Below are positions 1 through 109 of a stretch of 7,672 nucleotides of DNA, piece after piece. The DNA comes from a virus (lineage: Duplodnaviria > Heunggongvirae > Uroviricota > Caudoviricetes), in the IMG/VR virus record IMGVR_UViG_2698536646_000001; one strand, given 5' to 3'. Below the pieces are notes generated by a model. The model ran no database searches, was not told where the DNA came from, and saw nothing but the letters and a program-made list of their open reading frames with translations. How positions within the stretch are numbered: position 1 is the first letter of the stretch; each line of letters opens with the position of its first letter. The position numbers were made by a program, and so were the translations under genes.

Positions 1-86
1 CTCCAATGACTAGTCTAAAAACTAGTATTAAGACTATCACTTATTTAAGTGATACTGGTTGTCTGGAGATTCAGGGGGCCAGTCTA
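1..86 (-). mobile_element. Terminal 86 bp of an IS2-like insertion sequence (the end nearest the transposase orfA start); the body of the element lies left of the window
   Basis: The reverse complement of 1-86 reads TAGACTGGCCCCCTGAATCTCCAGACAACCAGTATCACTTAAATAAGTGATAGTCTTAATACTAGTTTTTAGACTAGTCATTGGAG, which I recognise from memory as the IS2 terminus including its terminal inverted repeat. Sequence character switches abruptly to phage lysis-gene sequence at 87. Confidence 0.75.
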
Positions 87-109
87 GTAAGGCTGCGAGA
101 GGTGAATAA
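87..109 (+). pseudogene. 3' remnant of a holin gene cut off by the IS2 insertion
   Basis: The frame ending in TAA at 107-109 encodes (R)KAARGE*, which matches my recollection of the P21 pinholin S21 C-terminus. The stop overlaps the endolysin ATG as TAATG, the classic S-R junction. Upstream of 87 this frame is full of stops because the sequence is IS2. Confidence 0.4.

What the first reader, a model, noticed from the sequence alone, without database searches (positions are those of the whole stretch)
1..109. IS2 insertion truncates the holin 7 codons before its stop, leaving an orphan SAR endolysin and spanin cassette
Seen in sequence: positions 1-86 are the terminus of an IS2-like element; from 87 the sequence is the last codons of a holin-like frame ((R)KAARGE*) whose stop overlaps the endolysin ATG. 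Established knowledge: in lambdoid and P21-type cassettes the holin gene directly precedes R, and IS2 insertions are polar or occasionally activating depending on orientation. Inference: the lysis cassette is cut off from its late promoter and holin, so the endolysin and spanins are probably silenced or misregulated. This is a typical domestication lesion.
Basis: partly seen in the sequence, partly recalled or inferred. Interest (0 to 1): 0.5.

Follow-up and report, generated by a model that had tools for sequence, protein, structure and literature searches.

The report
IS2 insertion in a prophage holin
The window is a decaying prophage remnant of Shigella sonnei in which a copy of the mobile element IS2 sits in the last codons of the phage's hole-forming (holin) gene, just before its cell-wall-degrading enzyme gene: a real but ordinary lesion already present in public genomes.

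Summary
Window 1-86 is the reverse complement of the first 86 bases (IRL end) of IS2, 86/86 identical. Positions 87-109 are the last codons of a phage-21-type class II holin, and its TAA overlaps the ATG of an R21/RrrD-type SAR endolysin.

The window is 100% identical to Shigella sonnei 53G and seven other complete genomes. These show the rest: a full 1331-bp IS2 with a 5-bp target duplication (GTAAG), and an upstream holin ORF with 66 native codons fused to 28 IS2-encoded codons. Only the last five residues (AARGE) are lost, not seven.

IS2 faces the endolysin with IRL, the end that has no known outward promoter element, and no promoter-like site faces R. More IS elements lie between the late-promoter region and the holin: IS911 in one genome type, ISEc20 in the other.

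The same window holds two nonsense mutations in the portal gene and an IS1 in codon 2 of the capsid gene, after which the prophage is deleted. This is routine IS-driven prophage decay in Shigella.

Silencing of the lysis genes is plausible but untested. Q-antiterminated read-through and holin-independent SAR endolysin release remain possible. Interest is low.

The parts
1..86 (-). Left end of IS2 (IS3 family). It holds the 42-bp IRL (window 86-45), the inward extended -10 promoter PIRL (TGAT = window 39-36 on the minus strand) and the orfA leader with its GGAG (window 4-1). The transposase genes read leftwards, away from the endolysin. The window starts inside the element.
   Evidence: 86/86 identity to the annotated IS2 in L002. 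The full 1331-bp element sits at this junction in L009 4386-5716. IRL and PIRL landmarks come from PMC3299598 and were read onto the sequence.
87..91 (.). Right-hand copy of the 5-bp target-site duplication GTAAG made by the IS2 insertion.
   Evidence: GTAAG flanks both ends of IS2 in L004 and in L006-L013. L003 positions 6001-6005 align to both flanks.
87..109 (+). 3' remnant of a phage-21-type class II holin (pinholin) gene: (R)KAARGE plus TAA. It still carries the endolysin's Shine-Dalgarno sequence (GAGG at 99-102).
   Evidence: 100% identical to L003 6001-6023, the end of the holin CDS 5808-6023. That intact holin matches PF04971 'Bacteriophage P21 holin S' at E = 1.5e-35.
109..482 (+). 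SAR endolysin gene (R21/RrrD type, GH24 lysozyme), codons 1-125 visible. SAR domain is residues about 8-26. Catalytic E35 (211-213), D44 (238-240) and T50 (256-258) are present. A lineage-specific P41L lies at window 230.
   Evidence: The full 165-aa copy in L004/L009, identical over the visible part, matches PF00959 at E = 1.1e-43. It also matches PDB 4zpu (RrrD) and 3hde (phage 21 lysozyme) at E about 1e-104 over residues 1-165.
483..636 (.). Run of 154 N. In all relatives 408 nt lie here: endolysin codons 126-165, the Rz start and its first 96 codons, and the Rz1 start with its lipobox.
   Evidence: Window 482 and 637 map to L009 6112 and 6521, to L003 6396 and 6805, and to L004 2799 and 2390. 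The hidden sequence was read in L009.
637..819 (+). 3' part of the i-spanin gene Rz (last 60 codons and stop).
   Evidence: Translation. The 156-aa Rz of L003 matches PF03245 at E = 1.1e-28. The L009 Rz is intact at 156 aa.
638..775 (+). 3' part of the embedded o-spanin gene Rz1 (+1 frame inside Rz), ...CHPQPKPPAPPAWAMMPP...RQH*.
   Evidence: Frame translation of the window. The full 68-aa ORF with lipobox MVVGC was read in L009.
3733..5199 (+). Portal gene (PF06381) inactivated by two nonsense mutations: W59* at 3908 and Q126* at 4108. This is independent evidence that the prophage is defective.
   Evidence: Base-by-base comparison with L003. Pfam match of the intact homologue. The three ORF fragments are called in all eight complete genomes.
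7583..7672 (+). End of IS1, inserted 4 nt into the DUF2184 capsid gene (ATG at 7579). In complete genomes chromosomal genes follow the IS1, so the rest of the prophage is deleted.
   Evidence: 90/90 identity to the IS1A end in L002 6001-6090. Sequence. Gene order after IS1 in L006-L013.

Best explanation
The window is a stereotyped Shigella sonnei contig from a defective lambdoid prophage. It is bounded by repeat ends: IS2 on the left and IS1 on the right.

Shown. One IS2 transposed into the 3' end of the phage-21-type pinholin gene S and duplicated GTAAG. The transposase reads away from the lysis genes, so IRL abuts the endolysin gene. The upstream S reading frame keeps both starts, both transmembrane domains and 66 codons. 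Its last five residues (AARGE) are replaced by a 28-residue, strongly basic IS2-encoded tail, and it stops 84 nt inside IS2. The S-stop/R-start overlap is therefore broken. R, Rz and Rz1 now lie behind about 1.25 kb of untranslated antisense IS2 sequence. R keeps its own ribosome-binding site.

Inferred. Ordinary transcripts entering from the left should be lost to Rho-dependent polarity in the untranslated IS2 stretch. IS2 offers no outward promoter at this end, so R/Rz/Rz1 are most likely silent in the lysogen. On induction they would be at best weakly or mistimedly expressed. In one genome type (53G) IS911 has also replaced 374 bp, including three tRNA genes, between Q and S. In the other type ISEc20 sits about 10 nt upstream of the S start, and Q is no longer adjacent.

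Together with the portal nonsense mutations and the IS1-bounded loss of capsid and tail genes, this is neutral IS-driven prophage decay. It is fixed in a recent clonal pathogen, not a regulated or selected device.
For: - IS2 identity and orientation.
- Full element and GTAAG duplication.
- Fusion ORF MYQM...EDKRK|WICPYISRHLLSLNPLQARCRRYSRGER* is identical in L005-L013. Its tail has 6 K/R and 1 D/E.
- The window is 100% identical to L009 = HE616528.1, S. sonnei 53G (accession identity from PMC5447701).
- The S. sonnei-specific 360-aa portal fragment is indexed in 2576 blocks of the collection. In 2304 of them the longest contig is 5-10 kb, which fits a recurrent short-read contig broken at IS copies.
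- Holin, endolysin and spanin families.
- No sigma-70-like site on the + strand within IS2 or window 1-120. No intrinsic terminator within antisense IS2. A strong terminator lies 45 nt upstream of S.
- IS911 and ISEc20 identities. Architecture upstream.
- IRL carries only the inward PIRL, and the outward -35 of IS3-family elements lies in IRR: PMC3299598, PMC9330008.
- Other lesions.
- The fusion protein is already deposited as 'lysis protein S [Shigella sonnei]' on 234 contigs.
Against: - No expression data were examined, so silencing is inference.
- R, Rz and Rz1 reading frames are intact in all eight complete genomes.
- R keeps its Shine-Dalgarno sequence and catalytic triad.
- In the 53G type, Q and a promoter-like site (L009 2281-2310) are still upstream in the same orientation. 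By established knowledge of lambdoid Q proteins, Q-modified RNA polymerase ignores intrinsic and Rho-dependent terminators, so it could traverse IS911 and IS2.
- The window itself cannot show the left side of IS2 or the masked 483-636 stretch.
Confidence: 0.85

Rival explanations
1. The cassette is still expressed on prophage induction. Q-antiterminated transcription from the late promoter reads through IS911, the terminator upstream of S, and IS2. R, Rz and Rz1 are then made. Lysis follows by spontaneous SAR release, or through a still-functional S fusion protein.
For: - Q gene, a promoter-like site and the same transcriptional orientation are kept in the 53G-type genomes.
- R, Rz and Rz1 are intact, and R has its own RBS.
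- SAR endolysins release spontaneously without a holin, later and less sharply (PMC9239132).
- The S fusion retains both TMDs.
Against: - In the L006-type genomes the Q region is no longer upstream, and ISEc20 splits S from its leader.
- Whether the prophage can still be derepressed is unknown.
- R carries three derived non-synonymous changes and Rz four, with little or no synonymous change alongside them. That pattern fits drift better than use.
Confidence: 0.12
2. The modified cassette is retained by selection as a host-controlled autolysis module, for example for release of colicin, toxin or vesicles. The IS2-encoded basic tail would retune pinholin timing.
For: - Intact R/Rz/Rz1 ORFs sit amid heavy decay of neighbouring genes.
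- IS2 lies in the same orientation next to essD-rrrD cassettes in two unrelated E. coli remnants.
Against: - S. sonnei is a recent clone, so species-wide fixation needs no selection.
- All seven R and Rz amino-acid differences from the reference are derived and non-synonymous.
- No promoter is apparent.
- A second copy of the locus (L004) has a frameshift in the holin.
Confidence: 0.03

Closest known systems
Phage 21 lysis cassette S21-R21-Rz21/Rz1 (pinholin plus SAR endolysin plus embedded two-component spanin)
   Same: - Same gene order and the same S-stop/R-start overlap.
- The holin family is PF04971.
- The endolysin aligns over all 165 residues with the phage 21 lysozyme structure 3hde, and has the E-X8-D-X5-T triad and a G/A-rich SAR domain.
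- Rz carries an embedded Rz1.
   Different: - Here S is split by IS2 five codons before its stop and acquires a 28-residue foreign tail.
- The cassette sits in a defective prophage with a different (PBSX-type terminase, DUF1073 portal) packaging module.
DLP12 essD-rrrD-rzpD/rzoD of E. coli K-12 and similar prophage-remnant lysis cassettes
   Same: A P21-type lysis cassette surviving in a defective prophage. The endolysin matches the RrrD structure 4zpu at E = 2.9e-104. IS elements border such remnants.
   Different: In the E. coli 042 and ET490 remnants, IS2 lies upstream of an intact essD. In S. sonnei it lies inside the holin coding sequence.
IS-driven pseudogenisation and prophage decay in Shigella genomes
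   Same: Four different IS types (IS2, IS1, IS911, ISEc20) lie within about 12 kb. There are IS-bounded deletions and point nonsense mutations. The phenomenon is described for Shigella in PMC8072062 (abstract).
   Different: Nothing of kind. This is one more instance.
Classical polar IS2 insertions and IS2 fusion promoters (gal operon and ampC; recalled from the literature, ampC case cited in PMC9330008)
   Same: IS2 lies inside an operon, upstream of intact distal genes.
   Different: Activation by IS2 uses the outward -35 in IRR. Here IRL faces the distal genes, so only the polar outcome is expected. I could not map the historical 'orientation I/II' names onto this orientation.

Membership tests
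IS2 (IS3 family) insertion | Terminal sequence identical to the IS2 inverted repeat (IRL) | tested here: met
   Window 1-86 is 86/86 identical to the IRL end of an annotated IS2.
IS2 (IS3 family) insertion | Complete element of about 1.33 kb with orfA/orfB transposase | tested here: met
   Not visible in the window. It is present at the identical junction in L009 (4386-5716, 1331 bp, 99.3% to the reference IS2) and in L004-L013, with HTH_Tnp_1 plus rve genes.
IS2 (IS3 family) insertion | 5-bp direct target duplication | tested here: met
   GTAAG lies on both sides. The right copy is window 87-91.
Phage 21-type class II holin / pinholin (PF04971) | Sequence membership of the interrupted gene | tested here: met
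   The uninterrupted allele (L003 5808-6023) matches PF04971 at E = 1.5e-35. Window 87-109 is identical to its 3' end.
Phage 21-type class II holin / pinholin (PF04971) | Dual-start motif and two transmembrane domains | tested here: met
   Read directly in L006-L013: MYQMEK..., then GIAYGTSAGSAGYWFLQWL and [23 protein letters not shown]. This part lies outside the window.
Phage 21-type class II holin / pinholin (PF04971) | Forms small depolarising holes that release a SAR endolysin | not testable with these tools
   Needs expression of the 94-aa fusion allele.
SAR endolysin (R21/RrrD type, GH24) | Phage lysozyme fold with E-X8-D-X5-T catalytic triad | tested here: met
   PF00959 at E = 1.1e-43. 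PDB 4zpu and 3hde at E about 1e-104. E35, D44 and T50 were read at window 211-213, 238-240 and 256-258. The motif definition is from PMC9239132.
SAR endolysin (R21/RrrD type, GH24) | N-terminal weakly hydrophobic, Gly/Ala-rich signal-arrest-release domain | tested here: met
   Residues 8-26, [19 protein letters not shown], contain 6 Ala, 3 Gly, 1 Ser and 1 Thr out of 19. They align with the SAR domain of RrrD/R21.
SAR endolysin (R21/RrrD type, GH24) | Sec-dependent export, membrane tethering and release on depolarisation | not testable with these tools
   Experimental property. The effect of P41L, D127Y and R136C is unknown.
Two-component spanin Rz/Rz1 (embedded architecture) | Rz family match, and Rz1 lipoprotein ORF in the +1 frame inside Rz | tested here: met
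   PF03245 at E = 1.1e-28 for the L003 Rz. L009 has a 156-aa Rz and a 68-aa Rz1 with lipobox MVVGC. The window shows only the 3' parts, 637-819 and 638-775. The 5' parts are masked by N.

The most novel reading that the evidence does not exclude
The S(1-66)::IS2 fusion is a working pinholin with a retuned, highly basic C-terminal tail. Together with the intact R/Rz/Rz1 it would be kept in S. sonnei as a host-controlled autolysis module, expressed from a promoter not recognisable by consensus scanning.
Probability: 0.04. Interest if true: 0.45.

Novelty: already known. Interest (0 to 1): 0.08.

Why it matters
It matters little beyond annotation.

- It explains why this S. sonnei region assembles as a 7.7-kb contig bounded by IS2 and IS1.
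- It shows that 'lysis protein S' entries of 91-111 aa in S. sonnei records are holin-IS2 read-through fusions.
- It documents that this prophage cannot produce particles and probably cannot lyse on schedule.

If the lysis genes were nevertheless expressed, they would be a latent autolysis hazard or tool for the host. Nothing here suggests that.

Tried and rejected
- Exact-junction scan of one-genome-per-species GTDB contigs found nothing. My inference is that Shigella is merged into E. coli there.
- Among the best-ranked of 5,426 complete E. coli genomes, no contiguous match crossed position 86/87. Full-coverage rows were two-piece joins to IS2 copies lying further upstream.
- The phage collection matched only the packaging and head genes.
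- Assembly chimera was rejected, because eight complete chromosomes carry the junction.
- An outward promoter in IS2 driving R was considered. No consensus match was found on the + strand, and the literature places the outward -35 at the other end.
- Rfam found nothing in the window.
- I tried to read the S21 mutational papers for data on the C-terminal tail (PMC3100158, PMC2963717, PMC1750887). They are not held, so the effect of the tail swap stays open.
- I could not determine whether the 154-N run is a shortened mask, a scaffold gap or a real 254-bp deletion in the source strain.
- I could not map the window's IS2 orientation to the historical 'orientation I/II' nomenclature.

Full report
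**Observation**

The first 86 bases of the window are the reverse complement of the left end of IS2 (TAGACTGGCCCCCTGAATCTCCAGAC...GGAG). They match an annotated 'IS3-like element IS2 family transposase' element in E. coli FDAARGOS_943 at 86/86, E about 1e-40.

From position 87 the sequence GTAAGGCTGCGAGAGGTGAATAA is identical to the last 23 nt of an uninterrupted 'class II holin family protein' gene in E. coli FDAARGOS_944 (L003 5808-6023). That gene matches Pfam PF04971 'Bacteriophage P21 holin S' at E = 1.5e-35. The holin TAA (107-109) overlaps the ATG (109-111) of the next gene.

**Source and the unseen left side**

No contiguous match across 86/87 appeared among the best hits in 5,426 complete E. 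coli genomes, and none in the GTDB species representatives.

An exact-protein look-up with a window-specific portal fragment returned eight complete chromosomes. These are 100% or nearly 100% identical to the window over 1-482 and 637-7672. One is HE616528.1, which is S. sonnei 53G (PMC5447701).

In that look-up 2304 of 2576 collection blocks have a longest carrying contig of 5-10 kb. This fits a recurrent short-read contig that breaks in IS2 on the left and IS1 on the right.

In the complete genomes the junction continues leftwards into a whole 1331-bp IS2 (L009 4386-5716, minus strand). GTAAG lies on both sides, the 5-bp target duplication.

**What happened to the holin**

Because of the duplication, the upstream copy retains codons 1-66. 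These include both start codons (MYQM) and both transmembrane domains. The frame then runs into IS2 for 28 codons (WICPYISRHLLSLNPLQARCRRYSRGER*). This fusion is identical in L005-L013. Only AARGE is lost. The new tail has six K/R and one D/E.

Public records already carry this product as 'lysis protein S' or 'class II holin family protein [Shigella sonnei]', on 234 contigs.

I could not obtain the S21 mutational papers. Whether the tail swap kills, delays or spares the pinholin is therefore open.

**The downstream genes**

The endolysin is visible for codons 1-125. The full 165 aa can be read in L004/L009, which are identical over the visible part.
- It matches PF00959 at E = 1.1e-43.
- It matches the solved RrrD and phage 21 lysozymes (4zpu, 3hde) over their full length at E about 1e-104.
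- It has the E35/D44/T50 triad at window 211-213, 238-240 and 256-258.
- It has a Gly/Ala-rich N-terminal segment of the kind that defines SAR endolysins (PMC9239132).

Its Shine-Dalgarno GAGG (99-102) survives in the 22-nt remnant.

Window 483-636 is 154 N. Every relative has 408 nt there. These encode the endolysin C-terminus, the Rz start and the Rz1 start with its lipobox.

After the N run, the last 60 codons of Rz and the embedded Rz1 tail are intact. In 53G, R (165 aa), Rz (156 aa) and Rz1 (68 aa) are complete.

Compared with the uninterrupted E. coli reference, the S. sonnei R carries P41L, D127Y and R136C. Rz carries four further replacements. These seven amino-acid changes are derived, and they account for all but one of the eight base differences in the R-Rz stretch. 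That pattern looks like drift.

**Mechanism**

*Shown.* IS2 is oriented with its transposase reading away from R, so IRL abuts R. S translation now ends 84 nt inside IS2. About 1.25 kb of untranslated antisense IS2 separates S from R, so the S/R overlap is broken.

*From the literature.* IRL carries only the weak inward promoter PIRL. The outward -35 that makes IS3-family fusion promoters lies in IRR (PMC3299598; PMC9330008).

*From scans.* No sigma-70-like site faces R in IS2 or in window 1-120. No intrinsic terminator lies in antisense IS2. A strong terminator lies 45 nt upstream of the S start, so the cassette normally depends on Q antitermination.

*Inferred.* Unmodified transcripts will be lost by Rho-dependent polarity in IS2, and the lysis genes are silent or badly mistimed.

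The inference is strengthened by further lesions between Q and S.
- In 53G-type genomes IS911 replaces 374 bp including three tRNA genes.
- In the other type ISEc20 sits about 10 nt upstream of the S ATG, and the Q region is no longer adjacent.

The counter-argument comes from established knowledge of lambdoid Q. Q-modified polymerase resists terminators and could cross both IS elements in the 53G type. A SAR endolysin can also lyse slowly without a holin (PMC9239132). No expression data were examined.

**Context**

The same window shows that the prophage is dead as a virus.
- The portal gene has two nonsense mutations, W59* and Q126*. These are 2 of only 9 substitutions relative to the reference.
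- IS1 is inserted 4 nt into the capsid gene.
- In complete genomes chromosomal genes follow that IS1 (lactonase, LysR regulator, aconitase-family protein, pectinesterase), so the remaining head and tail genes are deleted.

This is the familiar IS-driven genome decay of Shigella (PMC8072062).

**Comparison and novelty**

The cassette is a member of the phage 21 / DLP12 S-R-Rz/Rz1 type. The defining sequence features were all met. The functional ones are not testable here. The lesion is a standard IS2 insertion with its hallmark duplication.

The instance is already in public complete genomes and annotated piecemeal. The kind is textbook. I rate it 'already known', with interest 0.08.

The most novel reading not excluded is a retuned pinholin kept as a host autolysis module. 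It has no positive support beyond intact ORFs. The replacement-only divergence of R/Rz, the absence of a promoter and a frameshifted second copy (L004) argue against it. I put it at about 4%.

Noticed in passing
window 483-636: The 154-N run replaces 408 nt in every relative (L003, L004, L006-L013), so the window is 254 nt shorter here than the real locus. By chance R and Rz end up in the same frame, which creates a spurious 236-aa ORF (109-819). I could not tell whether this is a shortened mask, a scaffold gap or a real deletion.
   Followed up: partly
window 7579-7672: The window ends in 90 nt of IS1, inserted 4 nt after the ATG of the DUF2184 capsid gene. In complete S. sonnei genomes the IS1 is followed by chromosomal genes, so the rest of the prophage is deleted.
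   Followed up: yes
window 3908 and 4108: The portal gene has two nonsense mutations (W59*, Q126*). They are among only nine substitutions relative to the E. coli reference prophage over about 7.3 kb.
   Followed up: yes
window 230; L009 6113-6520: The S. sonnei endolysin differs from the reference, RrrD and R21 by P41L, D127Y and R136C. Rz differs by C18R, A60D, N74D and W91R. Seven of the 16 differences from L003 fall in the 408 nt hidden by the N run, which is a local cluster. It could reflect drift or a recombination patch.
   Followed up: partly
window 908-1420 (minus strand): An intact DedA/VTT-domain membrane protein gene (170 aa) lies on the opposite strand between the lysis and packaging modules. 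It looks like a moron-type cargo gene and is identical to the E. coli reference copy.
   Followed up: no
L009 about 4165-4185; L011, L013; L003 5795-5805: The poly-G tract just upstream of the holin ATG varies in length: G6 in E. coli L003, and G10, G11 and G9 in three S. sonnei genomes. This may be real slippage or homopolymer sequencing error. In the other genome type ISEc20 is inserted at this tract.
   Followed up: no
L004 (IMGVR_UViG_2526164617_000009), minus strand: This is a second, mosaic locus with the same IS911-holin-IS2-R arrangement. It is identical to the window up to about window 752. After that it has a different Rz 3' end and a lambda-like terminase module. Its holin also has a -1 frameshift in the A-run at codons 6-7. 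Its host genome was not identified.
   Followed up: partly
L014 (E. coli 042) 1267-3317; L015 (E. coli ET490) 1267-2941: In two unrelated E. coli prophage remnants IS2 lies upstream of an intact essD-rrrD cassette, about 230-600 nt from essD. The orientation is the same as here, and the IS2 bounds a deletion of everything upstream. This may be a recurrent target region or coincidence.
   Followed up: no
L009 2320-3637: In S. sonnei 53G IS911 truncates the first prophage tRNA gene and replaces 374 bp holding tRNA-Arg, tRNA-Thr and tRNA-Gly. These are present in the E. coli reference prophage (L003 4818-5128).
   Followed up: yes
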